From Patescibacteria group bacterium (GTDB lineage: Bacteria > Patescibacteriota > UBA1384 > XYA2-FULL-43-10 > 1-14-0-10-43-13): a stretch of DNA of 64,000 nucleotides. Both the position numbers and the translations under genes were made by a program. Positions 7,726 through 31,534 of this stretch are shown piece after piece. Below the pieces are notes generated by a model. That model saw nothing but the letters and a program-made list of their open reading frames with translations. It ran no database searches and had not been told where the DNA came from. Position 1 is the stretch's first letter. Every line of letters starts with the position of its first letter. The DNA lies in the NCBI GenBank assembly GCA_041666325.1, contig JBAYHC010000004.1, positions 128,929-192,928 on the forward strand. The letters are read 5' to 3'.

Positions 7726-7749
7726 GCCACAATGGGCAATTCGTGGCTT

Positions 7750-7805
7750 GTAGTTCGTATTTCGGAAACACTATGCAGTAGCCATAAACGAAATACGAGA
7801 TACAA
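7750..7805. repeat. Hairpin-forming intergenic element with stems TTCGTATTTCG / CGAAATACGAG
   Basis: The inverted repeat was seen directly between the iscS stop codon and the rubredoxin start codon. It belongs to the TACGAAA motif family. Confidence 0.5.
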
Positions 7806-7848
7806 TACACAAGATTGAACGAACAAAAACAAGGAAGCTGTTATCCCA

Positions 7849-8043
7849 ATGAACAAGACTAACGTAATAAAGAAATATGTCTGTCCACCCTGCGGTTACA
7901 TCTACGATCCGGCGGTTGGGGACCCCGAGATCGGTATTGCACCAGGCACGCCCTTCTCAGATCTTCCCGATGATTGGCTCTGTCCGCTCTGCGGCGTCAC
8001 GAAAGCTGAATTTGTCGAAGAACATGAATTCTATGGAGATTAA
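7849..8043 (+). CDS. Rubredoxin
   Basis: The product has two C-x-x-C-G knuckles (CPPCGY and CPLCGV) with aromatic residues between them. It is 64 aa long. Confidence 0.85.
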
Positions 8044-8057
8044 TCTCTGCATCTCGC

Positions 8058-8103
8058 CTATTTGTAATTTCGTATTTTCGTTTAATTTGTAATTTAGTAG
8101 GAG
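8058..8103. repeat. Intergenic element that is partly homologous to the element arms at 30142-30182 and 15815-15858. The shared core is ttcgtattttcgtt...taatttgtaatttagtaggag.
   Basis: The sequence similarity was seen directly. It ends in a TAGGAG Shine-Dalgarno-like box ahead of iscU. Confidence 0.45.
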
Positions 8104-8113
8104 ATCTGGAAAC

Positions 8114-8593
8114 GTGGAACAAGTACAATACTCACAACAAGTCCTAGACCACTTCTTTAATCCCAGAAACGTGGGTGAGATTTCTAATGCTGACGGCATC
8201 GGCGAGGTTGGCAACCTTCGTTGCGGCGATGTTATGTATGTGTATATCAAAGTAGGCGGAAGGCCCCGACAAAGTCGGGATAAACTCCAGGCGGAAGGCG
8301 AGACGCTTAGCGCCACTGAAGGCCGCGCCAAGCGTGGCGGAAGTGAAGAAGAGTATATTGAAGATATCAAATTCAAAACTTTAGGCTGCGCCGCCGCTAT
8401 CGCCTCAACAAGCATGATGACCGAGCTTGTTAAGGGAAAATCACTTGAGGATGCGATGAAAGTAACGCGCGACGATATCAATGAAGCCCTGGGGATTCTT
8501 CCCAAACAAAAATACCACTGCTCCATATTATCGGCAGACGGTATTCGCAAGGCGGTTGAGAACTATAGGGCAAGCAAAGCGGTAGGGCGGTAA
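8114..8593 (+). CDS. iscU: Fe-S cluster scaffold protein IscU/NifU. It contains a roughly 30-aa in-frame insertion inside its conserved core.
   Basis: The conserved Cys motifs are present: RCGDVM, KTLGCAAAIAS and KYHCSIL. Residues about 48-79 (GGRPRQSRDKLQAEGETLSATEGRAKRGGSEE) interrupt the conserved KV-x-IEDxKFKT segment. Confidence 0.85.
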   Translation: MEQVQYSQQVLDHFFNPRNVGEISNADGIGEVGNLRCGDVMYVYIKVGGRPRQSRDKLQAEGETLSATEGRAKRGGSEEEYIEDIKFKTLGCAAAIASTSMMTELVKGKSLEDAMKVTRDDINEALGILPKQKYHCSILSADGIRKAVENYRASKAVGR

Positions 8594-8638
8594 AGCAGTA
8601 GGGTAATAGTAGGTTTTTTTCTTATAACCTTACTAGCC

Positions 8639-10924
8639 TTATCCTGGCCATTCGGCGATCATGATGGACTCTGAAAGTGATGGATAAACCTCGCGTAGAT
8701 CCTGCCACACCGCCTCTGTCACAAATGGCATGAAGGGATGAAGCATTACCAGCGTTTCCGACAGAACACTCAAGAGAACTCTTCTGGTGTTGTTGTTCAG
8801 CTCGGCCGTAACATCCTCGCCAAGTTGCCCTTTGGATGCCTCGATATAGACATCGGCAAACGTGTGCCAGAAATAGTCATAGAGAAGTTCGCCGGCAAGT
8901 GAAAATTTAAATTTGTTAAGGTGTTCTGTCACCTTTTTCTTTACTTCCTCATGTTGTTTTAGGATGTCCCTGTCAGCGTCAGTCAACAGTCCACCGTTGA
9001 TTTTTAGATCAGAAACAATCGTTTGACCCAATTCGCCACTCTTTAGATCGCCCTCTGACGCTCGCAACATAACATAGCGAGAGGCGTTCCAAATTTTATT
9101 AGAGAAATTACGAAAACCCTTAATTTTGCCCTCGCCCACAGGTATGTCTTGACCGGGAGTAGATCCCACGGTCAGCGCCATACGGATAGCATCAGTGCCA
9201 TATTTCGGAATCAGGTCGAGCGGATCGAGCGCGTTGCCCAACGATTTGCTCATTTTGCGATTATGCTCGTCTCGAACCAATCCGTGAAAATAAACGGTCT
9301 CAAATGGCGCCTTGCCGGTAAACTCAAGGCCGAACATGATCATCCTCGCTACCCAGAAAAAGATAATGTCATAGGCAGTTTCCATCACAGTTGTTGGGTA
9401 AAAGTAATTGTAGTCACATGTGGTCATGCCCGGAGCATAGGGAAGGGGGTATTCGCACTTTTTGCTATCAATATTGTCGGGCCATCCCAGTGTTGAGAAA
9501 GGCCAGAGACCGGATGAGAACCAAGTATCCAAAACATCGGGGTCCTGCACCCAACCGGCGCCATCAGGCGCTTGCATGCCAACAAAAACTTCCTCCTCTC
9601 CCTTTTCATTTTTCTTATACCAAACAGGAATCTGGTGCCCCCACCAGAGTTGGCGCGAGATACACCAGTCACGAATATTGTCCATCCAGTGAAAATATAT
9701 CTTGTCGAAACGCTCAGGAATAATCTTGATTGTGCCATCTTCCACAACCTTCTTGGCCTTCTCGGCCAAAGGCCTCATCTTAACAAACCACTGCTTGGAC
9801 GGCAGCGGCTCAACTGCACCGCCGCAACGATAACAAACGCTTAGATTATTAAGGTATTCATCCTCTTTTTCGAGCAAATTGTTGCAAGAGAGCCAGGCAA
9901 TCAACTTTTCCTTTGCTTCGGTAACCTTTAGGCCAGTATAATTCTCTCCGGCCTCATCAGTCATACGGCCCTCTTCATTGATAACTTTAATAACCGGAAG
10001 ATCATGTTCCTCTGCCATGCGCCAGTCAACCATAGAGTGAGCAGGTGTGACACCAACAGCGCCGGTACCAAACTTGGCGTCAACAGCCCGATCCGCGACA
10101 ACCTTGATCTGTCGCTTGTTTCCGTCTATCTCAACATCAAAACTTTTACCAATATATCTTTGATAGCGTTTATCTGAAGGATTTACGGCCACGGCCGTAT
10201 CGCCAAGCTTCGTCTCCGGTCTGGTTGTTGCGATAGTAATCGGAAAATTCTTGTCGTATTTGAAATAGTATAGCTTGGATTTTTGTTCAACATGCTCAAC
10301 CTCATCATCGGCGATAGCTGTGTGACACCTTGGGCACCAGTTAACAATATATTCACCTCGATAGATGAGGCCTTTGCCATATAAATCGACAAATGCCCTC
10401 CGAACAGCAAGACTTAAGCCATCATCAAGCGTAAACCGCTCTCTCGACCAATCACAGGAGGCACCGAGACGACGTATCTGAGAGGTAATGATGTCGCCAT
10501 ACTTTCCTTTCCACTCCCAAACCTTCTCGACGAACTTCTCACGACCCAAATCGTTCTTATTTATCCCCTCTTTTCGTAGGGCTTTGTCGACAACGGTCTG
10601 AGTTGCTATACCAGCATGATCAGTGCCCGGCAGCCAAAGTGTTGGCTCTCCAAGGAGGCGATGGTAACGAGCCATAATATCCTCAACTGTCACAACCATG
10701 CCATGGCCCATGTGAAGCTTACCCGTAACGTTGGGTGGGGGCATTGATATCACAAAAGGCTTACCGTTGACTTCGCGATCATAGGCTAGCTGGCCGAGAA
10801 CTTTGCCACTATTGCCTTTCATGTTTATCTCTGGTTTAAAATAGCCGGAGCTTTCCCACTTTTGGTAAATCTTCTCCTCAAATTCCTTCGGCTCCCAGGT
10901 TTTTTCGATTGTTTTCTTTGCCAT
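8639..10924 (-). CDS. valS: Valine--tRNA ligase. It is a compact 761-aa form.
   Basis: The HIGH-class motif is PPPNVTGKLHMGHG and the KMSKS motif is NRKMSKSLGN. An editing-domain-like middle region is present. The N-terminal motif matches ValRS rather than IleRS or LeuRS. Confidence 0.8.
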   Translation of the reverse strand: MAKKTIEKTWEPKEFEEKIYQKWESSGYFKPEINMKGNSGKVLGQLAYDREVNGKPFVISMPPPNVTGKLHMGHGMVVTVEDIMARYHRLLGEPTLWLPGTDHAGIATQTVVDKALRKEGINKNDLGREKFVEKVWEWKGKYGDIITSQIRRLGASCDWSRERFTLDDGLSLAVRRAFVDLYGKGLIYRGEYIVNWCPRCHTAIADDEVEHVEQKSKLYYFKYDKNFPITIATTRPETKLGDTAVAVNPSDKRYQRYIGKSFDVEIDGNKRQIKVVADRAVDAKFGTGAVGVTPAHSMVDWRMAEEHDLPVIKVINEEGRMTDEAGENYTGLKVTEAKEKLIAWLSCNNLLEKEDEYLNNLSVCYRCGGAVEPLPSKQWFVKMRPLAEKAKKVVEDGTIKIIPERFDKIYFHWMDNIRDWCISRQLWWGHQIPVWYKKNEKGEEEVFVGMQAPDGAGWVQDPDVLDTWFSSGLWPFSTLGWPDNIDSKKCEYPLPYAPGMTTCDYNYFYPTTVMETAYDIIFFWVARMIMFGLEFTGKAPFETVYFHGLVRDEHNRKMSKSLGNALDPLDLIPKYGTDAIRMALTVGSTPGQDIPVGEGKIKGFRNFSNKIWNASRYVMLRASEGDLKSGELGQTIVSDLKINGGLLTDADRDILKQHEEVKKKVTEHLNKFKFSLAGELLYDYFWHTFADVYIEASKGQLGEDVTAELNNNTRRVLLSVLSETLVMLHPFMPFVTEAVWQDLREVYPSLSESIMIAEWPG

Positions 10925-11109
10925 AATTAAGCCTTATTTTTGTTAGTGCTATCTGTCCTTGATAATCAAAACTTAGCACAATTACGATCGAATTCCTAGT
11001 ACCACCCCATCATAATGATTGTGTATATTTCGCAGTACTAGTGCCGTGAGAATTCAGGGAAAGCGCAGTGGTGTTGACGGCGCGAAGCCTTGCGAAGAGC
11101 GAAGTAGCA

Positions 11110-11529
11110 CTAGGCATCGACCATATTATTACGAACAAATTTTTTGACAGCAGAGAGTGTCTCGTCCTTGAATTGAGCAGGAGAGGCTGCCACCCAGACA
11201 GCAAACTCATATAGCTCCTCGTTTTCGACCTGTATCCATTTCCCGTTTTTGGCCAAGAAGTGGAAGAGGGTCGTGATAGCAATACGCTTGTTTCCATTCT
11301 GAAAGGGGTGGTTTTTGATCATCAAATAAAAAAGGATGGAGGATTGATCGATAATGCCTCGATAAAGCGCACGCTTATTGAAGGTCTGAAAAGGGGCAGC
11401 AAGACAGCTCTCTAAAACATTAGGAAAACGAGAGGTAAAGTCGGGGATTGGCTCATCCCAAGCAAGCAACTTCTTGGCAAGACGATAGGAAATCATCTCA
11501 ACCTCTTGTAAAGAAACCATGAAGATCAT
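11110..11529 (-). CDS. Doc/Fic-family toxin. It carries an HPFQNGNKR motif.
   Basis: The ...KNHPFQNGNKRIAITTLF... sequence matches the Doc H-x-F-x-(D/N)-G-N-K-R active-site motif. The gene overlaps the upstream small HTH gene by 4 bp. Confidence 0.65.
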   Translation of the reverse strand: MIFMVSLQEVEMISYRLAKKLLAWDEPIPDFTSRFPNVLESCLAAPFQTFNKRALYRGIIDQSSILFYLMIKNHPFQNGNKRIAITTLFHFLAKNGKWIQVENEELYEFAVWVAASPAQFKDETLSAVKKFVRNNMVDA

Positions 11530-11780
11530 TCTCGCCCCAGTCTCTTTAGTGCCTCACCGTATTGATCAAAAAGCCGATCAACCGTACGGTTAACAACTTC
11601 TTTTTCAATATGGCTTAAGAATTCATTGGGTACTCCAAGGTCATGAATATTTATAAGGAAACCATGGCCCTTGCGTTTCGCCGGAATCGTGCCATTCTTA
11701 ACCAAGCGAAAGACCTGTGTTCGGTGAAGGCCAAGAATTTGACCGGCTTCTGTTGTGGATACGTATTTTTCTCTCTTCAT
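11526..11780 (-). CDS. Small HTH DNA-binding protein (excisionase/MerR-like helix-turn-helix). It is the putative antitoxin partner of the Doc toxin.
   Basis: The HTH reads TTEAGQILGLHRTQVFRLVKNGTIPAKR. The protein is 84 aa. It is translationally coupled to the Doc gene through an ATGA overlap. Confidence 0.5.
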   Translation of the reverse strand: MKREKYVSTTEAGQILGLHRTQVFRLVKNGTIPAKRKGHGFLINIHDLGVPNEFLSHIEKEVVNRTVDRLFDQYGEALKRLGRE

Positions 11781-12001
11781 AGTAAAATCACTATATCAAA
11801 AGTTGAACGATTAGAGCAATGCAACATGTACAAATGAGGCGGAGAAAGAGCATGATTAATGATTGTGCCAAATTGCGTACATGCGTTGGGTAAGCGCAAT
11901 GATGCAGCAAAACTTAGGAAAACAGGCTCATTTGAGCGTAAGCGAGTCAGACAGGAGAAATCACAAGTATTTAATATAATTGGGCACTATTCGGCTTGGG
12001 A

Positions 12002-13204: not shown

Positions 13205-13403
13205 AACTTTATGAATTTCATCATGATAGCACCTTTCCCTGTCCGTCTCAAGACGAGACCCGGATTGACAACTTGTCTTGACACGAAACAGAGATCATTT
13301 CCGATAAAGACTGGGTTGCGCGAGCGTCCTGGCAACGATTATTTACACATCGATCCACATCCACGGTTGTTGAATACGCTCTCAAGTGGTAACATATTAA
13401 AAG

Positions 13404-14345
13404 ATGAATAACTCAATCTTCCAAACCGAATCGTGGGCAGAATTTAAACTTTCCACCGGTTACTCGGACAAATACCGGCTGGATGATGTTTTGGTTTTGG
13501 ACAAGAAATTACCACTACTCCGGTCGATGCTTTACTCGCCGATGGTAAGCGCAAGTCAGGAATCGAGGCTTCTAAACCAGGAGTTTATCAGTAGCATCAG
13601 GTCGCTGGCAACAAAAACAAATGCAATCTTTTATCGCCTAGAACTGGGCGTCCCCATCGACGAGATACGAGATACGAGATACGAGATACGAAAGCTCGGC
13701 TTTCGCAAGTCTTTCGAGGAGATGCAGCCCGAGCACACTCTCGTCCTCGACATAAATAATACCGAGGAAGATATTCTTGCCCAGATGAAGCCAAAGGGCA
13801 GATACAATATCAAGATTGCCAGCAAAAACCAAATCGAGATTATGGTCTCAGACAAACCGGGCCAAGAGCTGGACCACTTCTATGAGCTTTACGAAACAAT
13901 GGCAAGGCGCCAAAATATCTCCCGCAGAAACAAAGCATACTTCGAGGCTCTACTTGAAATCATGTCTAGATTGGGGTATATTAGAGTATACAACGCCGTG
14001 GCCACAGTTGAGAACAAGAAGCATGTTTTGGCAGCTGCGATCATTTGCTTCTATGGCGAGCGAGCAACGTATCTCTTCGGCGGTTCAAGCAATGAACACC
14101 GAAATCTCATGGCTCCATATCTTCTCCATTGGCAGATAATCAAAGACGCCAAGCAGATTGGATGTAGCGAATACGACCTTTTCGGTGTTGCGCCGAATGA
14201 CGACGAAAAGCACCCATGGGCTGGTGTAACACGCTTCAAAAACCAATTTGGCGGCAAACGAGTTGATCTTGTCGGCAGTTGGGATCTAGTGTTCAAGCCA
14301 ACTGAATACGAGATATTTAAATTTGTCGAAAAAATTAGACGCTAG
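13404..14345 (+). CDS. FemAB-family peptidyltransferase (peptidoglycan interpeptide bridge formation). It contains an in-frame (GAGATAC)4 heptamer run.
   Basis: The C-terminal motif ...GGSSNEHRNLMAPYLLHWQIIKDAKQIGCSEYDLFGV... is typical of the FemAB/FemX family. The heptamer repeat at 13662-13689 encodes ...DEIRDTRYEIRK... Confidence 0.75.
   Translation: MNNSIFQTESWAEFKLSTGYSDKYRLDDVLVLDKKLPLLRSMLYSPMVSASQESRLLNQEFISSIRSLATKTNAIFYRLELGVPIDEIRDTRYEIRKLGFRKSFEEMQPEHTLVLDINNTEEDILAQMKPKGRYNIKIASKNQIEIMVSDKPGQELDHFYELYETMARRQNISRRNKAYFEALLEIMSRLGYIRVYNAVATVENKKHVLAAAIICFYGERATYLFGGSSNEHRNLMAPYLLHWQIIKDAKQIGCSEYDLFGVAPNDDEKHPWAGVTRFKNQFGGKRVDLVGSWDLVFKPTEYEIFKFVEKIRR
13662..13689. repeat. Tandem heptanucleotide repeat (GAGATAC)x4 lying inside the femAB-like gene
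   Basis: The sequence cgagatacgagatacgagatacgagatacgaaa was seen directly. Confidence 0.9.
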
Positions 14346-15747
14346 ATATGACGAACAGAGACCGGAGCCGAAGATCACTCGCGTCCAACCGCTAGAAATT
14401 AATTGTCAATCCCGAATTATGAAAAGATTTATATCAAAAATTGTCCCACAGTTGACTAAGAACAGGTACCACAAGCTTCAAGCTAATTACGCCCGGTTCC
14501 GCTATGGCAACCCAAGCCGCAAACTTGTTGTCATCGGCGTAACGGGAACAAAGGGAAAAACAACCGTCTGTAACATGATCGCCTCAATTCTTGATGCCAG
14601 CGGCAAGCCTAATGCCATGGAGACAACCATCAACACCAAAATCCTCGACAAGATCACTCCTCATACAACAAAGGCTCGCTGGGTTACTACTCCGCCACCA
14701 TCAGTTGTTCAACAATTCTTGCGCGATGCAAAAAAGGCCGGTTGCGAATACGCCATCCTCGAAGTCACCTCCCAAGCTATCGATCAGTACCGAATCTGGG
14801 GGATTGAGTTCGACGTGCTGGTCTATACCAATCTTTCGCACGATCACCTTGATTATCATCTGACAAAGGAAAAATATCTCGAAGCTAAACTCAAGGTATT
14901 CAGAGATAATCCCAAGGCTAAATTTGTCATCAACCATGATGACAGTTACTGGAATCGCTTTTACTCGCTACCAGCAACAGAGCGGTTCCTGTATTCAATC
15001 AAGCAACCCATGGAACACGGAGCGGTTGCTCGAAAAATCTTGCCGGGCTCAAGCGACATCACCTTTACCGTTGCCCACGACGACGGCCAGATCACAATCA
15101 ACCTGAATCTTCCCGGCCAATTCAATGTCCTAAACTCGCTAGCAGCGTTCTGTGTGGGTCTAGCACTCGAACTGGAACCAGAGAAGATTAAGAAGGGATT
15201 AGAGGACATTAAGCAAATTACGGGCAGGATGGAACCGATCAGAACATCCTCGAAGCAAGACTTCACCGTCATCGTTGATTACGCTCATAACCCAGACTCC
15301 CTCAAGAACGTTTATGAAACGACTCGCGAAAGCATGAAAAAGGCCGGAGGAAGACTTATCGCAGTCCTCGGAGCAACCGGCAGAAGAGACAAGACAAAAA
15401 GACCATTGATGGGCGCACTTGCCGGGCGGTATGCAGACCTAGTTATTTTTACCAACGAAGACCCGTACGACGAAGACCCAAACACAATTATCGAAGAGGT
15501 TGCTGCCGGCATTCACAGGGGAGCACTCAAGAAACACCAGTGGCATCTGGGGCGCAACTACTGGAAGGTGATCGATAGGGCCCAAGCCATTCATCAAGCA
15601 ATCAAAGAAGCACACAAGGGCGATGTCGTCATCATCACCGGGAAGGGTGCCGAAGAGGTCATGGCAGTCGGCCTAGATGAATTTATTCCATTTTCTGACC
15701 GAAGCATCGCCAAGCAAGAGCTCTTGCGACGCTTCCGGGAAGACTAA
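14323..15747 (+). CDS. murE: Mur ligase family protein, MurE-like (UDP-MurNAc-dipeptide: diamino-acid ligase). It has a TTG start at 14323, or alternatively an ATG at 14419.
   Basis: The P-loop is VIGVTGTKGKTT. DYAHNPDSL and GRRDKTKRPLMG motifs typical of MurE are present. The gene overlaps the end of femAB. Confidence 0.7.
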   Translation: MSKKLDARYDEQRPEPKITRVQPLEINCQSRIMKRFISKIVPQLTKNRYHKLQANYARFRYGNPSRKLVVIGVTGTKGKTTVCNMIASILDASGKPNAMETTINTKILDKITPHTTKARWVTTPPPSVVQQFLRDAKKAGCEYAILEVTSQAIDQYRIWGIEFDVLVYTNLSHDHLDYHLTKEKYLEAKLKVFRDNPKAKFVINHDDSYWNRFYSLPATERFLYSIKQPMEHGAVARKILPGSSDITFTVAHDDGQITINLNLPGQFNVLNSLAAFCVGLALELEPEKIKKGLEDIKQITGRMEPIRTSSKQDFTVIVDYAHNPDSLKNVYETTRESMKKAGGRLIAVLGATGRRDKTKRPLMGALAGRYADLVIFTNEDPYDEDPNTIIEEVAAGIHRGALKKHQWHLGRNYWKVIDRAQAIHQAIKEAHKGDVVIITGKGAEEVMAVGLDEFIPFSDRSIAKQELLRRFRED

Positions 15748-15780
15748 ACGCCGCCCCTACAAACTTACGAATCACTCGAA

Positions 15781-15858
15781 ATTACCAAATTACGAAACTA
15801 CCAATAACGGTATTTGTATTTTCGTATTTTCGTTTGAATTCGTACTTTGGTAGGGGAT
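15781..15858. repeat. Palindromic intergenic element. Its arms are taccaaattacgaaact... and ...gaattcgtactttggtagg. It is related to the elements at 30051-30182 and 8058-8103.
   Basis: The inverted repeat and the similarity to the other copies were seen directly. Confidence 0.5.
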
Positions 15859-15872
15859 TTGGCCACGCGGTC

Positions 15873-15901
15873 TTGACAACAGGCGCCTTTTTTGTTACAA
15901 T
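15873..15901 (+). promoter_or_regulatory. Near-consensus sigma70 promoter: TTGACA, 17 bp spacer, TACAAT
   Basis: TTGACA lies at 15873-15878 and TACAAT at 15896-15901, with an exact 17-bp spacer. It is about 90 bp upstream of the small ORF at 15990. Confidence 0.45.
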
Positions 15902-15989
15902 GACATAATTTGCCAATCTGGAATCAAAGGTAAATCGATGCTGGCGACCATACCAGACCATAAATGTCAAGTAACAACCTAGGAGGGAA

Positions 15990-16166
15990 ATGTCAAAAAT
16001 CAAAGTTAAAAAAATAGAGGATCCGAATACTGAGGTCCCGATTCATAGCGCCTTCGACCGCATAGAGGCGATCAAGGCCGAGATCTCCGGCTTTACAACA
16101 GCGCCGCACCTTGCCGAGGTAGAGGTCTTTGATATGTGGGGGGACAGCTCAGCAGAGACAAGCTAG
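15990..16166 (+). CDS. Small hypothetical protein (58 aa, acidic) that is absent from the ORF track. It has a strong ribosome-binding site and a strong promoter.
   Basis: An AGGAGGG site lies 6 nt upstream of the ATG at 15990. The product is MSKIKVKKIEDPNTEVPIHSAFDRIEAIKAEISGFTTAPHLAEVEVFDMWGDSSAETS. I do not recognise its family. Confidence 0.35.
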   Translation: MSKIKVKKIEDPNTEVPIHSAFDRIEAIKAEISGFTTAPHLAEVEVFDMWGDSSAETS

Positions 16167-16217
16167 CCCACACGAGAGGGCTAGAAACAAAAAACCAACC
16201 CAATGACTAATCTTGCG

Positions 16218-17228: not shown

Positions 17229-17303
17229 AAAAAAGTGCGAAAGTACTAAGTGTGAAAGTACTAAGTGTGAAAGCACCAAGCGTGAAAGTACTAAGTGCCC
17301 CAC
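17229..17303. repeat. About four tandem copies of a 15-16 bp unit (GTGAAAGTACTAAGT) immediately 5' of the recombinase ATG
   Basis: The sequence gtgcgaaagtactaagtgtgaaagtactaagtgtgaaagcaccaagcgtgaaagtactaagtg was seen directly. Related motifs occur at 49320-49465. Confidence 0.8.
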
Positions 17304-17386
17304 CCGGGGCCCCTTTGCGGGGTGAAAGGAATCGCATCATTGCGACGCCACTTAGTGCTTAGAACCTTCACACCTTCATGCTATAT

Positions 17387-18174: not shown

Positions 18175-19023
18175 ATGATCGAAATCGGAAGGTCTTTTAT
18201 TATTGGGGCGATTCAGGGCATTGCTGAATTTTTGCCGATCTCCTCTTCTGGTCACCTTGTGCTTCTTCCCTATATTTTCAAGTGGGATTATCAGGGCCTG
18301 GCTTTTGATGTTGCCCTCCACTTTGGCACAGTGGTAGCACTGGTTGCCTACTTCTGGCGCGATTGGCTTGCGCTTTTCTTTAGCGCGGTAAGAATACGAA
18401 ATACAAAATATAAAATACGGGAATACCCAGACAACCTGCTCTGGCAAATTATTGTCGCCTCAATCCCCGCAGCAATGGTTGGCCTACTAATCAATGGCTA
18501 TGTCGAAAAATACCTGCACTCTCCTGCACTCCTGGCCTTCAATCTGATTTTCTTCGGTTGGCTGCTCTGGTTCGTAGACAAGAGGGCCAAGGCAAAATAC
18601 GATCTTCAACAAGCTCAGGTCGGCCTGAGTGGCAATAGACCGCCCGAAATACGAAATACGAGATACTCGCATTTGTTCCTCATGGGCATCGCCCAGTCTG
18701 TCGCCTTGGTCCCTGGCGTTTCTCGCTCCGGTATCACAATGACCGCCGGACGATCTCTGGGCTTAAGCAGAGAAAATTCAGCTAGGCTTTCCTTTTTGTT
18801 GGGCACCCCTGCGATGATCGGCGCGTTTATTGTCGAGTTTAAAGATATCGATAAGGGAGGCCTAAGCGCAGCATTCTTGATCGGCGTTATCTCAGCAGCT
18901 GTTTTTGGTTTTATCGCTATTAAATATTTGCTACAATACTTAAAGAAAAGCGACTTCTCAATTTTTTTGTGGTATAGGATCGCTCTGGCCATAATGGTTC
19001 TGGCCCTATATTTCACAAGATAA
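18175..19023 (+). CDS. uppP: Undecaprenyl-diphosphatase UppP (BacA). It carries two in-frame inserts encoded by RAAATAC heptamer runs.
   Basis: The UppP signature is ...EFLPISSSGHL.... The inserts ...VRIRNTKYKIREYPDN... (18391-18428) and ...PPEIRNTRYSHL... (18646-18666) coincide with the heptamer repeats. Confidence 0.85.
   Translation: MIEIGRSFIIGAIQGIAEFLPISSSGHLVLLPYIFKWDYQGLAFDVALHFGTVVALVAYFWRDWLALFFSAVRIRNTKYKIREYPDNLLWQIIVASIPAAMVGLLINGYVEKYLHSPALLAFNLIFFGWLLWFVDKRAKAKYDLQQAQVGLSGNRPPEIRNTRYSHLFLMGIAQSVALVPGVSRSGITMTAGRSLGLSRENSARLSFLLGTPAMIGAFIVEFKDIDKGGLSAAFLIGVISAAVFGFIAIKYLLQYLKKSDFSIFLWYRIALAIMVLALYFTR
18391..18428. repeat. Heptamer-like run (gaatac gaaatac aaaatat aaaatac gggaatac) lying inside uppP
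   Basis: Seen directly in the sequence. Confidence 0.75.
18646..18666. repeat. Heptamer run GAAATAC GAAATAC GAGATAC lying inside uppP
   Basis: Seen directly in the sequence. Confidence 0.85.
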
Positions 19024-19135
19024 TAAAACAGCACATAAGCTAGTAAGTAATTTTAGAGCAAATTGTGGTTCAGTTAAGTTTTCACTCGCTCACCAGCCTA
19101 TTAGCCCGCTAACTTACCGGCCAGCAAAGGAGGGT

Positions 19136-19795: not shown

Positions 19796-19810
19796 TACGA
19801 GCGAGGGAAG

Positions 19811-21805: not shown

Positions 21806-21817
21806 CGTCACCTTACG

Positions 21818-24694: not shown

Positions 24695-24729
24695 ATTCGT
24701 CAAAAATCGAATAAACACGGAGACGTTTT

Positions 24730-26367
24730 ATGACAGACGCAGCAGCAGAACAACCCGTCCCACCCCCGGTAACACCAGAGGCAGGAAGCGAAGGACAAGA
24801 AGCGGCAAAAGCGGCTGAGTTTTATTATCTTTCGGAGGAGGAGATTGCTCAAGCCATCGCCGAAGCCAAGAACCGCCCCATTCCGCCGGAGAAAGCACAA
24901 AGAATCAGTCGAGACCTGGACGCTGTTGAAAAAATTCGACAGGATATTATCGGATTGGAAGCGCTATCACCGGAAGAAAGAGATAAAACCCTTAGAACCA
25001 TGTCCGGCGCGCCGAATGTCCGCCCCGTCTTTGATGTTCTTCTCGGAAAACCAAGCCAACAGCCGGCTGAGGTCGTCTCCACCGAACAACATCCGCGACA
25101 ACGGCTAATAGAAGACCTGAGAACGCGATTTGCCGGACAAGAAATAGGCGCTGACACATGGGAAGAGGTCGAGGAGTTCGTTGCAGAGAACACCGAGCTA
25201 TTCGACACGCTAGAAGCCAAAATACAAGAGCTGAGCAGAAAACCTGAATACAGTCGAATAGAAGTCAAGAAGAAGACCATCGAGATTTGCCTCCTGCAAT
25301 CTGTTGTCAACGGACATCTCACGAAGGAAGATTTGAAAACTGTCCTCGAGGGCGGAGTCCGCATCTTGTCCAATGAGGAGATCTCGCAGCTTGCCAAAAC
25401 CGAGCAAAGCTACGAGGGCATCATGTATTATGATCTGGGTAACCGGGCGCTCATTATTTCGGAGAGCGCTTTGGTTGACGAGTACCGCATGAAGAATGCG
25501 GAAACCGGACAAGAGCGAATAATTGAGATCGACATAGAACACTCCATAAACCACGAAATTGCCCACGGCATAGTTGAGAGGGGATTACTAACCTCCGGCG
25601 AGAAAAGAGCTCGCAAGGAGCTGCGTGAGGGCAAAGAGGGGGTAGAAATTCCACCCGGCCTGCTCTCCCTCGCCATGTCAGTCATTGCTGCGGCCGGCGA
25701 GGTGAAAGAATACATGGTTTACCATTCAAGAAATGTCTTGAATGGCCTAGAAAAGCTAGGAGACATTCCGGCAAAGGACAGACAAAACGCTCAGGTTAAC
25801 GCAGCCATAGAGATAATTACTGACTATACAGCCATCTTTATGCAATCTGATGGCAAGGAAGAGAATTTTGTCGCCAAGTGTCTCGCCAAAACAGACACCG
25901 ACTTGCTTGTGAATCATCTTGCCAGGCGCTTCGGAATCAATGAAACTGACCCCGCGATAGTCAGGCAAAGGATCGGAGAAAAGATTAATGCGTTTAACGA
26001 GACGGACGAGAATGAGAAGAAGAGCATTCTCGCGCAGTACCCGGAGCTAGCCAAGGTCAACACTATGTTTCGAAAATTCTACGGGCTACTATATCAAGGA
26101 CGCGATGAGCTGGATAGAACCGAGGAAAAAATTGGCAAACGACAAGGCAAGCTCAAGGCGATGGGCAAGATCGGAACAGCAGCTGATGATAACGATGAGC
26201 GTACACTATTGCCGGATGAGGCAGCGTCTTTCCCGCAACAGAAAAACGAACAAAATGGTCAGCAAGAGGGCGGCGCTGTGAAGGAAGGTCTTGCAAGTGT
26301 TTTCCAATTTGTCCAGGCCTTTGCCGAAGAAGTAGGCGGGGGAGTAAATCAGGCCGTGTCACAATAG
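24730..26367 (+). CDS. Hypothetical soluble protein (545 aa) containing an HExxH motif (IEHSINHEIAHG). It may be a metallopeptidase-like protein.
   Basis: No confident family match was found. The HEIAH motif was seen in the translation. The N-terminus is Pro/Glu-rich. Confidence 0.35.
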   Translation: MTDAAAEQPVPPPVTPEAGSEGQEAAKAAEFYYLSEEEIAQAIAEAKNRPIPPEKAQRISRDLDAVEKIRQDIIGLEALSPEERDKTLRTMSGAPNVRPVFDVLLGKPSQQPAEVVSTEQHPRQRLIEDLRTRFAGQEIGADTWEEVEEFVAENTELFDTLEAKIQELSRKPEYSRIEVKKKTIEICLLQSVVNGHLTKEDLKTVLEGGVRILSNEEISQLAKTEQSYEGIMYYDLGNRALIISESALVDEYRMKNAETGQERIIEIDIEHSINHEIAHGIVERGLLTSGEKRARKELREGKEGVEIPPGLLSLAMSVIAAAGEVKEYMVYHSRNVLNGLEKLGDIPAKDRQNAQVNAAIEIITDYTAIFMQSDGKEENFVAKCLAKTDTDLLVNHLARRFGINETDPAIVRQRIGEKINAFNETDENEKKSILAQYPELAKVNTMFRKFYGLLYQGRDELDRTEEKIGKRQGKLKAMGKIGTAADDNDERTLLPDEAASFPQQKNEQNGQQEGGAVKEGLASVFQFVQAFAEEVGGGVNQAVSQ

Positions 26368-26432
26368 CATCTCAGGTCACAAAGCAAGTAGGCATGTAGG
26401 CTAGTAGGCAGAGTTGCACCACTGAAGAGTTA

Positions 26433-26493
26433 TTACTAGCTTACTAGCTTACTAGCTTACTAGCTTACTAGCTTACTAGCTTACTAGCTTATT
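26433..26493. repeat. Microsatellite (TTACTAGC)x7 with a partial eighth unit
   Basis: Seen directly in the sequence. The unit is related to the pervasive GCTTAC / CTAGTAAG intergenic motif family. Confidence 0.9.
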
Positions 26494-26587
26494 TTCTTTA
26501 TTGCTCTCATTACAGAACATTGTTATAATAGTTTCGAATCGTTAACTTCCTTATATTGGAAGTGGTTTTGGAAACTCGCGAGGGGAA

Positions 26588-26986
26588 ATGCGCTACAAGG
26601 TGCCACAAAATATCGACATGCAAGACAGAATCATTGGCCCACTGACGATGATTCAGTTTATCTATGCAATTGTTGGGACAGGCGCTGCCTACTCACTCTA
26701 TATGACCCTGCCAAAGCCACTCAATCTAATCGCGGCTGTTCCCGTTCTAATTTTTACAATTTGTATTGTCTTTATCAAAATTAACGAGAGACCCTTCCTA
26801 AATTTCTTCTTAGCCATGATAGAGTTTCTCTCCGCCCCCAAAAAACGCGTCTGGCATCACGGCAGTGTCGACAACCTTAAGGTTATTATTTACAGCAACA
26901 AAGACAACAGCAAACAGAAAGCTGCCGTCAAACATGTTTCCGAGGATGAAATCAAAAAACTAGCAAAAAAATTAGACGAGAATTAA
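26588..26986 (+). CDS. PrgI / VirB3-like small T4SS membrane protein (132 aa, two TM helices)
   Basis: The N-terminus ...YKVPQNIDMQDRIIGPLTMIQFIY... is followed by two hydrophobic helices. It sits upstream of the VirB4 homologue, as PrgI and TcpD do in Gram-positive T4SS loci. Confidence 0.5.
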   Translation: MRYKVPQNIDMQDRIIGPLTMIQFIYAIVGTGAAYSLYMTLPKPLNLIAAVPVLIFTICIVFIKINERPFLNFFLAMIEFLSAPKKRVWHHGSVDNLKVIIYSNKDNSKQKAAVKHVSEDEIKKLAKKLDEN

Positions 26987-27060
26987 TAGGCGTAAGCAAT
27001 CAGGCGCAAGGCGAAAGACCTTGACTCAGTTACATTAATTGCAATTGACTTACGACTGAC

Positions 27061-27116
27061 GCCTCTCGCCCGCCTGCATCGCCTGGAGCGAAGCGACTGC
27101 GGGCAGGCCTCTCACA
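27061..27116. repeat. Intergenic copy of the 36-bp core repeat (27071-27106), flanked by cctctc direct repeats
   Basis: The core is identical to the one at 3963-3998. The flanks are cctctc...cctctc. The spurious minus-strand ORF 27050..27373 reads through it. Confidence 0.8.
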
Positions 27117-27125
27117 CTATCAATT

Positions 27126-28184
27126 ATGACCCAAGACGCAACCCAACAAGTTATCGACATCGCAGGCATTAAAGACGGCATCATCATTCTAAAAGATGGC
27201 GGATACCGTATTGTTGTCTCGGTTTCGACCGTAAACTTTGCCCTCAAAAGCGAACAAGAACAAAATTCGATAATTTTCCAATACCAAAGCTTCCTTAACT
27301 CCCTGCACTTTCCAGTAGAGATCATCATGCGCTCGCGTCGACTCGACCTCACACCATACCTCAACAAGATCAAGGGACTTGCAGGGAAGCAGGAGAACGA
27401 ACTTCTTCGTATTCAAACAGAGGATTATATAGACTTTGTGGCGAAGCTGATCGATCTGGCCAACATCATGAAAAAGACCTTCTTTGTGGCGATTCCGTTC
27501 CAACCTCTGACAATCAAAAGTGGATCGTTCCTGAGCAACATCCTGAATCGCAACAAGGAAAAGACAGTGACCGAATTGCGTATTCCAGAGGAGGAGTTCA
27601 AGCGCAATGCAGATGAGGCGAGACAGCGCGCTCAAATTGTTGCGTCGGGCCTTGGATCAATTGGGCTTCACTGTGTCCAGCTAACAACAGAGGAACTGAT
27701 CGAAACATTTTATCAGATCTATAACCCCGAAATTGCCGGCAAGGAGCGATTCAGCGATGCTGACAACCTATCTGCGCCGATCATCGAGCACAGCAGTGAG
27801 AAAAGAGGGCTTCCCAAAGAGGATAAGGCAGGAGATAAGTCAGAGACGAGGATAGATAATTCCGCCGAGGTGATTGCTGTTCAGAAAGAAAAAAGCGCTT
27901 TAAGGCAGCAAGAAATGCTAAAGGACGGAGAGAGACAGATTGGCACATCGCCACACCAGCCTGCTTCCCCGGCCCAAAACCAGAAAGAACCGCCAAAACA
28001 AGAAACGGCCGGAACAACCGAAAGGGAAGAGAAGATCGGCCAACCGCAAACAGTTCAAGCGGGTGTCCCCCAAGCGGGCCAAACAGAGCAAGGGAGCAAC
28101 ACTACGAACGGTAGCACTGGGACCCAAACCAGCATCGCATATAACGTCCAGACACCAAGCACAGAACAAGAAGTTCAGAAGTAA
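27126..28184 (+). CDS. T4SS protein resembling the extreme N-terminal region of Gram-positive VirB4/TraE ATPases, followed by a Gln/Pro/Thr-rich low-complexity tail. It may be the detached N-terminal part of VirB4.
   Basis: The segment ...IDIAGIKDGIIILKDGGYRIVVSVSTVNFALKSEQEQNSIIFQYQSFLNSLHFPVEII... matches a pattern I associate with VirB4 N-termini from Firmicutes ICEs. The gene lies immediately upstream of the ATPase. Confidence 0.4.
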   Translation: MTQDATQQVIDIAGIKDGIIILKDGGYRIVVSVSTVNFALKSEQEQNSIIFQYQSFLNSLHFPVEIIMRSRRLDLTPYLNKIKGLAGKQENELLRIQTEDYIDFVAKLIDLANIMKKTFFVAIPFQPLTIKSGSFLSNILNRNKEKTVTELRIPEEEFKRNADEARQRAQIVASGLGSIGLHCVQLTTEELIETFYQIYNPEIAGKERFSDADNLSAPIIEHSSEKRGLPKEDKAGDKSETRIDNSAEVIAVQKEKSALRQQEMLKDGERQIGTSPHQPASPAQNQKEPPKQETAGTTEREEKIGQPQTVQAGVPQAGQTEQGSNTTNGSTGTQTSIAYNVQTPSTEQEVQK

Positions 28185-28201
28185 TCCAACAATAGGAATA
28201 C

Positions 28202-30043
28202 ATGCCAGAAGAAACCCAACAACAAGTTACAGCAGGGCAATCTGCCGACCCCAGAGTTCAAGCACAGGAAAACATCCGCCAGCGTGAGCAGAAGTCTCTT
28301 GGTGCCCTTAATGGCCTGGGCGACAGAAGTCGTGCCAGCATTGAAAGTGGCGAGATATCAATCAGGGATGTTGTCGCCCCTGCTGCCTTCATGGTGACAC
28401 CAAATTATGTTCAGATTGGACCATTGCTCGCCAAGACGCTCTTCGTGTTCACTTATCCGCGCTATCTTGAAACCAATTGGTTGTCCCCGATAATCAATTA
28501 CGACCTAACGCTCGACATGTCCATGTATGTTCACCCACTCGAATCCAAAGATGTCATGAATCAATTAAAGAACCAGGTGGGCAAACTTGAATCAACGCTG
28601 ATGATTGATGAGGAGAAGGGTTCGCCTCGCGATCCAGAACTAGAAACCGCACTCGGAGACATTGAGTCACTAAGAGATGTTTTGCAGAGGGGCGAGGTAA
28701 GATTATTCCAGTGCGGCCTGTACTTCACAGTTTATGCTGAAACATTTGAAGAGTTAAAAACTGTTACCGATCAGTTAGAGTCAACGTTGGGCGGGTTGCT
28801 CATCTACACCAAAGAATCGCTCTTTCAGATGGAGCAAGGGTTTAACACAACGTTGCCACTGATGAATGACAAACTCAATGTTCTGCGCAACCTGGACACG
28901 GGCTCACTTTCATCAACCTTCCCCTTTACCTCCAACGAATTAACTCAGGATGATGGTATTTTGTATGGTATCAATCGCCACAATAACTCGCTTATCATCT
29001 TTGATCGATTCAAGCTGGAGAACGCCAACAGTATAGTCTTCGCTAAATCTGGTTCTGGTAAATCATACTTCGTTAAGCTTGAGTGCTTGCGATATCTTAT
29101 GCTTGGAACAGATGTGATCATCATTGACCCAGAGAATGAGTACAAGATGCTGTGTGATGCAGTTGGAGGCAACTATCTTAACATATCACTGAACTCTGAC
29201 CAGCGGATCAACCCCTTTGATCTGCCTCTCAACCCGAATGAAAAAGGAGAGGATATACTTCGCTCAAATGTAGCCTCGCTCCATGGCCTGATCAACTTGA
29301 TGGCTGGTGGACTCTCACCAGAAGAGGATTCAATTATTGATAAAGCGATTTACGAAACATACGCACTTAAAGACATTACAGCAGACGCAGAGAGTCAGAA
29401 AAATGAGCCACCGATACTGCAAGACTTTTACAATATTCTCTCAAACATGCAGGGGACAGAGTCATTGCGGGCAAGGCTTACAAAATATGTTGAAGGCTCC
29501 TTTGCATCGCTCTATAACCAGAGGACTAACTTCCAGCTAAACTCCGGATTTGTTGTATTTTCCGTACGAGATTTGGAGGAGCAACTGAGACCTCTCTCCA
29601 TGTATACGATTCTCAACTTTATCTGGACTCAGGTCCGCATGACAATGAAGCGACGCCTCCTTGTCGTTGATGAGGCCTGGTGGATGATGCAATACGAAGA
29701 TTCAGCCAAGTTTCTTCACGGTCTCGCCAAGCGCGGCCGCAAATATTACCTTGGGCTCACCATTATCAGCCAAGACGTAGAAGACTTCTTGAGCAGCCGC
29801 TACGGAAAGGCTGTTGTTGCCAACTCATCGATGCAATTCTTGATGAAACAGTCCACTGCCTCTGTTGATGTTATCGCCGATGTCTTTAACCTTACCGAGG
29901 GAGAAAAGTACCTGCTGCTTGAATCCGACGTTGGTGAAGGCCTCTTCTTCGCTGGCCTCAATCATGTCGCCATTAAGGTTGTAGCATCCTATGCAGAGGA
30001 TCAGATAATTACGACGGATCCGAAACAACTGCTGGGAGAATGA
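28202..30043 (+). CDS. virB4: VirB4/TrbE/CagE-family T4SS ATPase
   Basis: The N-terminal motif is ...VAPAAFMVTPNYVQIGPLLAKTLFVFTYPRYLETNWL.... The Walker A motif is FAKSGSGKSY and the Walker B motif is LLVVDEAWWMM. Confidence 0.8.
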   Translation: MPEETQQQVTAGQSADPRVQAQENIRQREQKSLGALNGLGDRSRASIESGEISIRDVVAPAAFMVTPNYVQIGPLLAKTLFVFTYPRYLETNWLSPIINYDLTLDMSMYVHPLESKDVMNQLKNQVGKLESTLMIDEEKGSPRDPELETALGDIESLRDVLQRGEVRLFQCGLYFTVYAETFEELKTVTDQLESTLGGLLIYTKESLFQMEQGFNTTLPLMNDKLNVLRNLDTGSLSSTFPFTSNELTQDDGILYGINRHNNSLIIFDRFKLENANSIVFAKSGSGKSYFVKLECLRYLMLGTDVIIIDPENEYKMLCDAVGGNYLNISLNSDQRINPFDLPLNPNEKGEDILRSNVASLHGLINLMAGGLSPEEDSIIDKAIYETYALKDITADAESQKNEPPILQDFYNILSNMQGTESLRARLTKYVEGSFASLYNQRTNFQLNSGFVVFSVRDLEEQLRPLSMYTILNFIWTQVRMTMKRRLLVVDEAWWMMQYEDSAKFLHGLAKRGRKYYLGLTIISQDVEDFLSSRYGKAVVANSSMQFLMKQSTASVDVIADVFNLTEGEKYLLLESDVGEGLFFAGLNHVAIKVVASYAEDQIITTDPKQLLGE

Positions 30044-30050
30044 ACAAGTC

Positions 30051-30182
30051 CCTACAAAATTACGAATAGACGCACGAAAATACGAAAGTACGAATGGTTC
30101 TCCCCCTAGGACAGGAGGAGACAAAGGGAAAGCACGAAGAATTGTAGTTTCGTAATTTCGTTGGATTCGTAATTTTGTAGGA
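30051..30182. repeat. Palindromic MITE-like intergenic element. It has roughly 45-bp inverted arms (CCTACAAAATTACGAA...) around a 40-bp centre, and ends in a TAGGAG ribosome-binding site.
   Basis: The left arm at 30051-30100 matches the reverse complement of the right arm at 30142-30182. It lies between the virB4 stop codon and the next gene. Confidence 0.55.
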
Positions 30183-30206
30183 GCTTTGGAAATTGGAGGG
30201 AAATAG

Positions 30207-31475: not shown

Positions 31476-31534
31476 CAACTCTTAAGGTATTATCAAAGTC
31501 AATTGAGACTGCACGTTAAACAAGAAGAGAAGGA

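What the first reader, a model, noticed from the sequence alone, without database searches (positions are those of the whole stretch)
7745..30182. Family of palindromic intergenic elements built on CGAAATACGA / TTCGTATTTCG, placed immediately after stop codons and ending in TAGGAG
At least four intergenic sites share homologous arms: 7750-7805, 8058-8103, 15781-15858 and 30051-30182. Arm sequences include cctacaaaattacgaa, ttcgtattttcgtt and ttcgtaattttgtaggag. These form long hairpins.

The element at 30051-30182 has about 45-bp arms that start 8 nt after the virB4 stop codon. It ends in the Shine-Dalgarno region of the hydrolase gene. This is reminiscent of REP/ERIC/BOX-type elements, with possible roles as terminators, mRNA stabilisers or translational couplers. 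Alternatively they may be MITEs related to the in-gene heptamer tracts.
Basis: seen in the sequence. Interest (0 to 1): 0.55.

Follow-up and report, generated by a model that had tools for sequence, protein, structure and literature searches.

The report
Mobile TACGAA hairpin elements of CPR bacteria
Two full copies and one half copy in this window belong to a widespread, apparently undescribed family of ~100-base palindromic DNA elements of Patescibacteria (CPR) that sit between genes and inside ribosomal RNA genes, and whose full-length form carries a small nuclease gene of unknown function.

Summary
Sites 15754-15856 and 30046-30186 are full copies of one element, 8058-8103 is a lone 3' arm, and 7750-7805 is a different small hairpin.

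The element is not private to this genome. An exact two-arm pattern found at least 118 metagenome contigs (host GC 32-61%) and a Saccharibacteria ribosomal-protein operon. The window itself is from a Berkelbacteria-like Patescibacteria MAG.

Each arm carries four TACGAA hexamers in two pairs. The hexamers pair across the arms, but the bases between them do not.

About 80% of copies lie between co-directional genes, a median 3.5 nt after the stop codon and 9 nt before the next start. Others sit in the tips of 16S and 23S rRNA helices.

In six independent contexts the same arms bracket a GxxExxY (PF13366, PD-(D/E)XK) gene with invariant catalytic residues. I therefore read the window's hairpins as ORF-less miniature copies of a nuclease-bearing, IVS-like/REPIN-like mobile cassette.

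Dispersal is shown. Mobilisation by the nuclease and any RNA-level role are inferred.

I found no target-site duplication, no Rfam family and no paper containing these sequences.

The parts
15754..15856 (.). Full TACGAA element (site 3). The 5' arm is about 15750-15802, the terminal loop 15803-15808 and the 3' arm 15809-15863. It lies 6 nt after the stop of the Mur-ligase gene (14323-15747), in a 470-nt gap that is only 38 nt in a syntenic relative.
   Evidence: z -7.75; 62.4 bits, E 1.6e-11; relative L005.
30046..30186 (.). Full TACGAA element with a long loop (site 4). Arms are about 30046-30093 and 30143-30186, with a 49-nt loop. It lies between the VirB4/TraG-like ATPase gene (stop 30041-30043) and the glucosaminidase+CHAP hydrolase gene (TTG start 30207).
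   Evidence: I3, 22-nt arms, 91% complementary; z -6.27; 41.3 bits.
8058..8103 (+). Lone 3' arm (site 2) between the rubredoxin stop (8041-8043) and the IscU-like GTG start (8114). It carries the family's 25-nt 3' terminus.
   Evidence: (no fold of its own, z +0.11).
7781..7812 (+). Candidate degraded inner 5' module (TAAACGAAATACGAGATACAATA). It is complementary to the site 2 arm and lies across the rubredoxin gene from it.
   Evidence: third-best match in the window, score 27. The duplex is not significant against composition-matched shuffles (z -1.2). Tentative.
7750..7805 (.). Small hairpin TTCGTATTTCG..24 nt..CGAAATACGA (site 1). It uses the same hexamer vocabulary but has reversed polarity, and it is not a family member by the model.
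   Evidence: I6; z -4.9; no match.
7849..8043 (+). Rubredoxin gene (64 aa). It is a possible cargo ORF in the loop of the degraded element formed by 7781-7812 and 8058-8103.
   Evidence: PF00301. By analogy with L134, where a second ORF rides in the loop. Inference only.

Best explanation
The window's TACGAA hairpins are ORF-less miniature copies of a palindromic mobile cassette found across Patescibacteria (CPR).

Anatomy:
- The full cassette is [5' arm]-GxxExxY gene-[3' arm].
- Each arm is CTACGAAAxTACGAAW, then 3-8 nt, then TACGAAAxTACGAAW. That is four TACGAA hexamers in two pairs.
- Miniature copies keep the arms and replace the gene with a 10-60 nt loop.

Shown:
- The copies are dispersed in many genomes, at non-orthologous sites.
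- Several copies can occur per contig.
- Copies are nested in other palindromes and in rRNA helix tips.
- The same arms bracket the nuclease gene.

Inferred, step 1 (mobilisation): the GxxExxY protein is a PD-(D/E)XK nuclease with an intact E/D/ExK catalytic set. I propose that it recognises the hexamer arrays and mobilises both its own cassette and, in trans, the miniature copies. This would resemble the RAYT-REPIN or IS-MITE relationship, but it leaves no target-site duplication.

Inferred, step 2 (tolerance): the element is tolerated because the transcribed palindrome folds back on itself. In an operon this brings the upstream stop codon (median 3.5 nt before the stem) next to the downstream start codon (median 9 nt after it), so translational coupling would survive the insertion. 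In rRNA the element merely extends a helix tip, where it could be kept as an expansion or cut out by RNase III like a classical intervening sequence.
For: Family and spread:
- The two-arm pattern gives 2 sites in the window against 0 expected.
- It gives at least 118 metagenome contigs with 126 sites, host GC 0.32-0.61.
- It gives 0 of 2.9 M viral contigs.
- The one genome-contig hit of the 25-nt terminus is a Saccharibacteria ribosomal-protein operon. It has four TACGAA copies plus other hairpins in its spacers.
- Hosts identified as Patescibacteria: the window and L125. The nuclease homologues carry names from Parcu-, Taylor-, Nealson-, Giovannoni-, Falkow- and Staskawiczbacteria.

Architecture:
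- In the 71-sequence alignment the inner hexamer pair was not part of the search pattern, yet it is at least 90% conserved.
- 88% of cells pair, against 34-45% when the partner columns are slid.
- W-W positions and flanking positions covary.
- The x-y bases between hexamers are unpaired in 40/69 and 43/69 sequences, which is chance level.

Copy number:
- The model gives 254 strand-wise matches in 637 kb, with 3-7 copies on some contigs.
- It gives none in three relatives of the window organism.
- Two copies on L038 are near-identical, loop included.

Context:
- 77 of 91 classifiable sites lie between co-directional genes.
- The oriented distances are 3.5 and 9 nt.

rRNA:
- One copy lies in a 187-nt insertion in a 23S hairpin loop.
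- One copy lies in a 144-nt insertion at a 16S helix tip.
- The same composite palindrome occurs at three sites.

Nuclease link:
- TACGAA arms bracket PF13366/TIGR04256 genes at L028, L080, L126, L128, L130/131 and L134. The ATG abuts the 5' arm.
- L022 and L017 carry CGAA-type variant arms.
- E38, D77 and E87-x-K89 are invariant in 30 homologues.
Against: - No presence/absence polymorphism of a TACGAA copy between close strains was found in the data held. Insertion events are therefore inferred, not observed.
- No target-site duplication was found, so a classical DDE-type mechanism is excluded and the actual mechanism is unknown.
- No GxxExxY gene lies in the 64-kb window. The rest of this genome could not be read.
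- Co-occurrence of the gene and the miniature copies genome by genome was not tested.
- Sense and antisense strands fold about equally (mean difference -2.1 kcal/mol, p 0.04; 140 against 145 G-U pairs). There is therefore no clear sign of selection on the transcript.
- The outer hexamer pair and the CTAC/GTAG termini were fixed by the search pattern. Their invariance is not independent evidence.
- Only a few host contigs were assigned taxonomically.
Confidence: 0.6

Rival explanations
1. Host-selected RNA structure. On this view the hairpins are cis-acting mRNA elements kept by the host for their function, such as RNase III processing sites, 3'-end stabilisers or translational couplers. They would not be mobile DNA.
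For: - The placement is precise: a median 3.5 nt after the stop codon and 9 nt before the next start codon.
- The stems are stable.
- 44% of oriented copies have G after GTAG, giving a TAGG(A/G) purine run at the ribosome-binding position.
- The stem often extends 1-3 covarying base pairs beyond the conserved termini.
Against: - The same sequence, not just the same structure, recurs at non-orthologous sites in hosts of 32-61% GC.
- Copies occur inside rRNA genes, nested in other palindromes, and around a nuclease gene.
- Relatives of the window organism have compact spacers and lack the hairpins.
- The bases between hexamers are not paired.
- There is no sense-strand bias in G-U pairs.
- Tiny CPR spacers would force any tolerated insertion into this position anyway.
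Confidence: 0.12
2. Local growth. On this view the arms arise in place by slippage of 7-8-nt units. The two arms are then kept complementary by hairpin-templated repair, so the resemblance between sites is convergent.
For: - Unit number varies between copies.
- The window has a perfect (TTACTAGC)x7.4 array in one arm of another hairpin.
- Many different unit types form similar hairpins in the window and in L007.
Against: - The irregular parts are shared too. The window site 4 5' arm and the L007 arms agree at roughly 80% by eye, including the non-periodic spacer.
- The two-pair architecture is conserved in 71 copies.
- Near-identical loops occur in copies on one contig.
- The arms are specifically associated with GxxExxY genes.

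Slippage probably does modify the arms, but it does not explain the family.
Confidence: 0.08
3. The hairpins are intrinsic transcription terminators at gene ends.
For: They are hairpins placed directly after stop codons.
Against: - The stems are AT-rich with regular mismatches and are not followed by a U-run.
- About 80% lie between co-directional genes, a few nt from the next start. These include essential ribosomal-protein, ATP-synthase and pilus operons.
Confidence: 0.02
4. The hairpins are guide-RNA arrays of the TIGR-Tas or CRISPR kind, which are known from CPR bacteria.
For: A literature search for repeats in Patescibacteria returned the TIGR-Tas papers.
Against: - TIGR arrays are tandem 36-nt units made of two alternating 8-12-nt repeats and 9-nt spacers, and they lie next to a Nop-domain Tas gene.
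- Here the elements are single, dispersed palindromes between housekeeping genes. They have no variable spacers, and no such gene was seen among the flanking genes annotated.
Confidence: 0.01

Closest known systems
Intervening sequences (IVS) of 23S rRNA, with or without an ORF (Leptospira, Coxiella S23p, Salmonella)
   Same: - Both are insertions bounded by inverted repeats that extend the tip of an rRNA helix.
- Both occur with a small ORF of an 'IVS protein' family or without one.
- Both are sporadically distributed.
- Copies of the TACGAA element lie in 23S and 16S helix tips.
- The window's other hairpin type brackets a PF05635 IVS-protein gene.
- Short ORF-less insertions of unknown nature in CPR rRNA genes are on record (PMC11270868).
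   Different: - Most copies here are in mRNA spacers between protein genes, not in rRNA.
- The arms are built from conserved TACGAA hexamers.
- The ORF is a GxxExxY PD-(D/E)XK protein.
- RNase III excision was not tested.
REP/REPIN elements with their RAYT gene (own knowledge: Nunvar 2010; Bertels and Rainey 2011; Ton-Hoang 2012)
   Same: - Both are ~100-nt hairpin doublets dispersed in intergenic regions.
- In both, a protein gene is flanked by the same repeats, with many ORF-less copies.
- Neither leaves a target-site duplication.
- Both have a GTAG motif at the repeat ends.
   Different: - The associated protein is a PD-(D/E)XK fold, not a Y1 HUH transposase.
- GTAG lies at the outer 3' end of each arm rather than 5' of a REP hairpin.
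- The arms consist of four hexamers with unpaired bases between them.
- The hosts are CPR bacteria rather than Proteobacteria.
- No RAYT gene was looked for systematically.
MITEs that are co-transcribed and fold in mRNA (Correia/NEMIS of Neisseria, ERIC, RUP, BOX; own knowledge)
   Same: - They are small non-autonomous palindromic elements.
- They are inserted close to genes and transcribed with them.
- They form long hairpins that RNase III can cut.
   Different: - No target-site duplication was found.
- No DDE transposase parent was found.
- The internal structure is a periodic hexamer array.
- Copies also insert in rRNA helices.
Short tandemly repeated heptamers (STRR) and small dispersed repeats of heterocystous cyanobacteria (own knowledge: Mazel 1990; Elhai 2008)
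   Same: Both involve intergenic arrays of 7-8-nt units. Small dispersed elements are embedded in them, and they have hairpin potential.
   Different: They differ in unit sequences and hosts. The cyanobacterial repeats have no known bracketing of a nuclease gene and no rRNA insertions. This comparison is from memory only and was not tested.

Membership tests
rRNA intervening sequence (IVS) | Insertion in the terminal loop of an rRNA helix | tested here: met
   L044 227-350 lies in a 187-nt insertion at LSU model position ~688. L084 2498-2580 lies in a 144-nt insertion replacing SSU model 1118-1138. The window copies themselves are not in rRNA.
rRNA intervening sequence (IVS) | Excision from the precursor by RNase III without religation | not testable with these tools
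   This needs RNA data from a CPR culture or a metatranscriptome.
rRNA intervening sequence (IVS) | Optional ORF of an IVS-protein family between the inverted repeats | tested here: met
   A GxxExxY (TIGR04256/PF13366) gene lies between TACGAA arms in six contexts. A PF05635 gene lies between the other arm type in the window.
REP/REPIN-RAYT | Associated Y1 (RAYT) transposase gene flanked by the repeats | tested here: not met
   The flanked genes found are PD-(D/E)XK GxxExxY proteins. No systematic search for Y1 transposases was made in the loci.
REP/REPIN-RAYT | Hairpin doublets dispersed in intergenic DNA without target-site duplication | tested here: met
MITE (DDE-type) | Terminal inverted repeats | tested here: met
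   The CTACGAAAxTACGAA / TTCGTAyTTTCGTAG termini. These termini were partly imposed by the search pattern.
MITE (DDE-type) | Target-site duplication of fixed length | tested here: not met
   No length and offset combination is clearly enriched among 121 distinct copies.
MITE (DDE-type) | Parent IS with matching ends and a transposase | tested here: not met
   The full-length form carries a GxxExxY nuclease-fold gene, not a known transposase.
Intrinsic terminator | GC-rich stem followed by a U-run, at the end of a transcription unit | tested here: not met
   The stems are AT-rich with no T-run. Most copies are inside operons.
TIGR array | Tandem units of two alternating repeats and 9-nt spacers beside a Nop-domain Tas gene | tested here: not met
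   Definition from PMC12045711. The elements here are single palindromes without spacers.
Any Rfam family | Match at the gathering score | tested here: not met
   Only two tRNAs were found in the window and L007.

The most novel reading that the evidence does not exclude
GxxExxY (TIGR04256) proteins may be the mobility nucleases of a new class of autonomous 'hairpin cassette'. On this reading:
- The nuclease recognises arrays of TACGAA hexamers.
- The cassette inserts without target duplication at hairpin tips and at stop/start junctions.
- It spawns ORF-less miniature copies and sometimes picks up cargo ORFs.

The four-helix-bundle 'IVS proteins' (TIGR02436), with their own arm types, would be a parallel system. 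This would explain where bacterial rRNA intervening sequences come from, and what these two widespread orphan protein families do.
Probability: 0.35. Interest if true: 0.8.

Novelty: new variant of a known kind. Interest (0 to 1): 0.66.

Why it matters
- **Streamlined genomes still carry selfish DNA.** CPR bacteria have roughly 1-Mb genomes with very short spacers. Yet some carry a ~100-nt palindrome in nearly every spacer of their ribosomal-protein operon, and in their rRNA genes.
- **A sequence identity for unclassified rRNA insertions.** A defined family with a covariance model gives a name to part of the 'short uncharacterised insertions' reported in CPR rRNA genes.
- **A lead on two orphan protein families.** It ties those insertions to intergenic elements. 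It also gives a concrete, testable substrate, the TACGAA arms, for the GxxExxY family, whose function is listed as unknown.
- **Practical consequences.** These repeats probably break metagenome assemblies and can mislead gene callers. In my crude calling, 28 of 126 copies were overlapped by spurious ORFs or over-extended ORF starts.

Tried and rejected
- **Rfam** at gathering thresholds on the window and L007: only tRNAs.
- **TIGR-Tas arrays:** rejected after reading the definition.
- **Orthologous comparison:** three ValRS-anchored relatives (about 70% identity) are AT-rich and have no such hairpins. They gave no covariation data, only the 38-nt against 470-nt gap at site 3. Contigs L002 and L003 are identical to the window.
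- **Strand asymmetry of folding or of G-U pairs,** as a sign of RNA-level selection: not found.
- **Target-site duplications:** none.
- **Presence/absence polymorphism between near-identical contigs:** the only indels found belong to other small palindromes.
- **Viral contigs:** no copy.
- **Long-range pairing of site 1 with site 2:** not significant against shuffles, because both partners are A-rich or T-rich. It is kept only as a tentative reading on the strength.
- **Solved structures for GxxExxY:** no informative match.
- **Literature:** no paper holds the arm sequences. GxxExxY/PDDEXK_3 is mentioned only in passing, with unknown function.
- **Polarity as evidence of orientation:** I first took 'purine-rich arm first' as evidence of orientation with transcription, then dropped it. 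A palindrome reads the same on both strands, so this polarity is intrinsic.


Full report
**What is in the window**

The four sites exist as described. The flanking genes are:
- an IscS-like aminotransferase, a rubredoxin and an IscU-like protein around sites 1 and 2;
- a Mur ligase before site 3;
- a TraG/VirB4-like P-loop ATPase and a glucosaminidase+CHAP hydrolase around site 4.

Sites 3 and 4 fold into long hairpins far beyond shuffled controls (z -7.75 and -6.27). Site 1 folds into a short hairpin (z -4.9). Site 2 does not fold on its own (z +0.11).

Sites 2, 3 and 4 share a 25-nt 3' terminus that occurs 3 times against 0 expected. Site 1 has the opposite arm order.

The window comes from a 193-kb metagenome contig. 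Its ValRS is annotated in NCBI as from a Patescibacteria group MAG. The nearest relatives, at about 70% identity, include Berkelbacteria.

**The family outside the window**

- A scan of species-representative genomes with the 25-nt terminus gave one hit, a Saccharibacteria MAG. That locus is a ribosomal-protein operon. Its spacers hold four TACGAA hairpins plus hairpins built from other short units. Two of its copies are close duplicates. Their 5' arms resemble the window's site 4 arm, including the non-periodic spacer.
- A two-arm pattern matches sites 3 and 4 (0 expected). These give 126 sites in hosts of 32-61% GC, from groundwater, sediment and sludge.
- The same pattern found none in 2.9 M viral contigs.
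- A high-GC host was checked and is also Patescibacteria.
- Three relatives of the window organism have no copies. One of them is syntenic and has a 38-nt gap where the window has 470 nt including site 3.

**Anatomy**

The consensus from an alignment of 71 copies is:

nnnCTACGAAAxTACGAAW-(3-8)-TACGAAAxTACGAAW-loop-WTTCGTAyTTTCGTA-(3-8)-WTTCGTAyTTTCGTAGnnn

- The inner hexamer pair was not part of the search pattern, yet it is at least 90% conserved.
- With my structure, 88% of cells pair, against 34-45% when the partners are slid.
- The W positions switch U-A to A-U together.
- The three bases outside the termini pair in 51-71% of copies, with many pair types.
- The x and y bases between hexamers are unpaired at chance frequency (40/69 and 43/69).
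- The spacers between the two modules form an internal loop.

So the hexamer sequence itself is conserved, not merely helix formation. This points to sequence-specific recognition.

A covariance model built from this alignment finds only sites 3 and 4 in the window. In the fetched loci it finds many copies that the strict pattern missed, up to 4-7 per contig.

**Context**

- Of 91 classifiable copies, 77 lie between co-directional genes.
- In 50 oriented cases the stem starts a median 3.5 nt after the stop codon and ends a median 9 nt before the next start codon.
- The elements fill spacers in ribosomal-protein operons. The gene-bearing cassettes also sit in ATP-synthase and type IV pilus operons.
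- They are therefore not terminators.
- Sense and antisense strands fold alike and carry equal numbers of G-U pairs. I see no direct sign of selection on the RNA.
- No target-site duplication exists.

**rRNA**

- One copy lies in a 187-nt insertion in the loop of a 23S hairpin.
- Another lies in a 144-nt insertion at the tip of a 16S helix.
- In these, the TACGAA element is nested inside an outer palindrome. The composite recurs at three different sites.
- GC-rich mini-palindromes are in turn nested in TACGAA loops and arms.
- A survey of CPR rRNA genes reports many short ORF-less insertions of unknown type, 'probably IVS', and IVS-protein ORFs in both rRNAs. It does not describe palindromes or intergenic copies (PMC11270868).

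**The gene-bearing form**

- On two contigs that also carry short copies, the same arms bracket a PF13366 (PDDEXK_3) ORF.
- I searched for homologues (TIGR04256, 'GxxExxY protein', abundant in CPR) and read five independent contexts.
- The gene lies between TACGAA arms, with the ATG abutting the 5' arm, in four settings: an ATP-synthase operon, a Taylorbacteria contig, a pilus operon (7-nt period), and the ribosomal-protein operon of a complete Giovannonibacteria genome. In the last one the loop also holds a tRNA-binding-domain ORF.
- Two further genes have CGAA-type variant arms.
- The catalytic E, D and ExK residues are invariant in 30 homologues of 41-80% identity.
- The family's function is listed as unknown.

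**Interpretation**

Shown: a dispersed, multi-copy, cross-lineage element with a gene-bearing form and a miniature form, able to sit in operon spacers and in rRNA helix tips.

Inferred: the nuclease mobilises the arms. The fold-back RNA keeps stop and start codons adjacent, so that coupling survives. rRNA copies behave as IVS.

The closest known systems are rRNA IVS with ORF, REPIN-RAYT, and co-transcribed MITEs such as Correia elements. The element meets some defining features of each and fails others: no Y1 transposase, no DDE transposase, no target-site duplication.

- Site 2 is a lone 3' arm.
- Its best partner in the window, after the arms of sites 3 and 4, is the right half of site 1, across the rubredoxin gene. 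This suggests a degraded element with rubredoxin in its loop, but the pairing is not significant against shuffles.
- TAGGAG is not a family feature. G follows GTAG in 44% of oriented copies.

**Limits**

- The outer termini were fixed by the search pattern.
- Most host contigs were not classified.
- No insertion polymorphism of a TACGAA copy was seen.
- The remainder of this genome was not available.

Noticed in passing
window 26384-26491, 32873-32990, 46035-46115, 50375-50469, 50716-50872, 52400-52495, 61476-61559, 8566-8640, 19040-19120, 63984-64000: A second, more abundant set of intergenic arrays is built from GTAAGC-type octamers (GCTAGTAA, GCAAGTAG, GCGGTAAA). The purine-rich copies come first and their complements second. 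One arm is a perfect (TTACTAGC)x7.4 array. Some fold significantly (z -2.0 to -4.5) and others do not (z -1.7 to +0.3). The TACGAA model does not match them.
   Followed up: partly
window 60100-60580 (- strand gene 60154-60513) and 44237-44680: A 23S-rRNA-IVS four-helix-bundle gene (PF05635/TIGR02436) and a pseudogene of the same family are each bracketed by long-range complementary octamer arms (duplex z -5.2 and -8.2). IVP genes in loci L013, L124 and L018 are likewise bracketed by other purine-rich/pyrimidine-rich arms. This looks like a system parallel to GxxExxY and its TACGAA arms.
   Followed up: partly
window 7261-7358 and about 27060-27110: A perfect 46-bp x2.1 tandem repeat containing a GC-rich palindrome lies inside the IscS-like ORF. 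A reverse-complement copy lies in the spacer after the PrgI-like gene. Two other assemblies of this organism (L002, L003) break within this repeat (their first base is window 7329).
   Followed up: no
window 13660-13691; 18393-18418; 18645-18666: Tandem heptamers lie inside ORFs. A perfect (ACGAGAT)x4.6 tract sits in the FemAB-like gene, encoding DEIRDTRYEIR in a region that varies against a relative. A perfect CGAAATA tract and an imperfect (84%) AATACAA tract sit in the BacA gene. A 7-nt unit in a reading frame is slippage-prone and would shift the frame.
   Followed up: partly
window 32960-32977, 52448-52477; L007 about 470-505; L013, L058, L112; L131 1761-1930: Small GC-rich palindromes (CCCCGCCTTCGGCGGGG, CCTGCCTGCCGGCAGGCAGG and similar) are nested in arms or loops of the larger hairpins. 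In L131 a 170-nt insertion containing one of them is present in one Nealsonbacteria strain and absent in three others. It replaces 10 nt at a stop/start overlap.
   Followed up: partly
window 15873-15901: A near-consensus sigma-70-like promoter, TTGACA-17 nt-TACAAT, lies directly after the site 3 element and points towards a 58-aa ORF (15990-16166). This was read from the sequence only.
   Followed up: no
window about 26500-44240: This is a conjugation-like gene cluster: a PrgI-like protein, a VirB4/TraG-like ATPase, a glucosaminidase+CHAP hydrolase, a PEGA/beta-propeller protein and a 3173-aa ORF. It hosts the site 4 element. A transfer apparatus carrying a copy could help the family cross lineages.
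   Followed up: no
L134 6408-6740 (Giovannonibacteria CP066687.1): A tRNA-binding-domain ORF rides with the GxxExxY gene inside one pair of TACGAA arms, between rpsN and rpsH. The cassette can therefore carry cargo.
   Followed up: partly
L066 about 2620-2710 against L056 about 3040-3050: Another hairpin element (CCCCGTTAGAAATT...AATTTCTAACGGGG, about 70 nt) is present in one of two contigs that are 85-90% identical and absent in the other.
   Followed up: no
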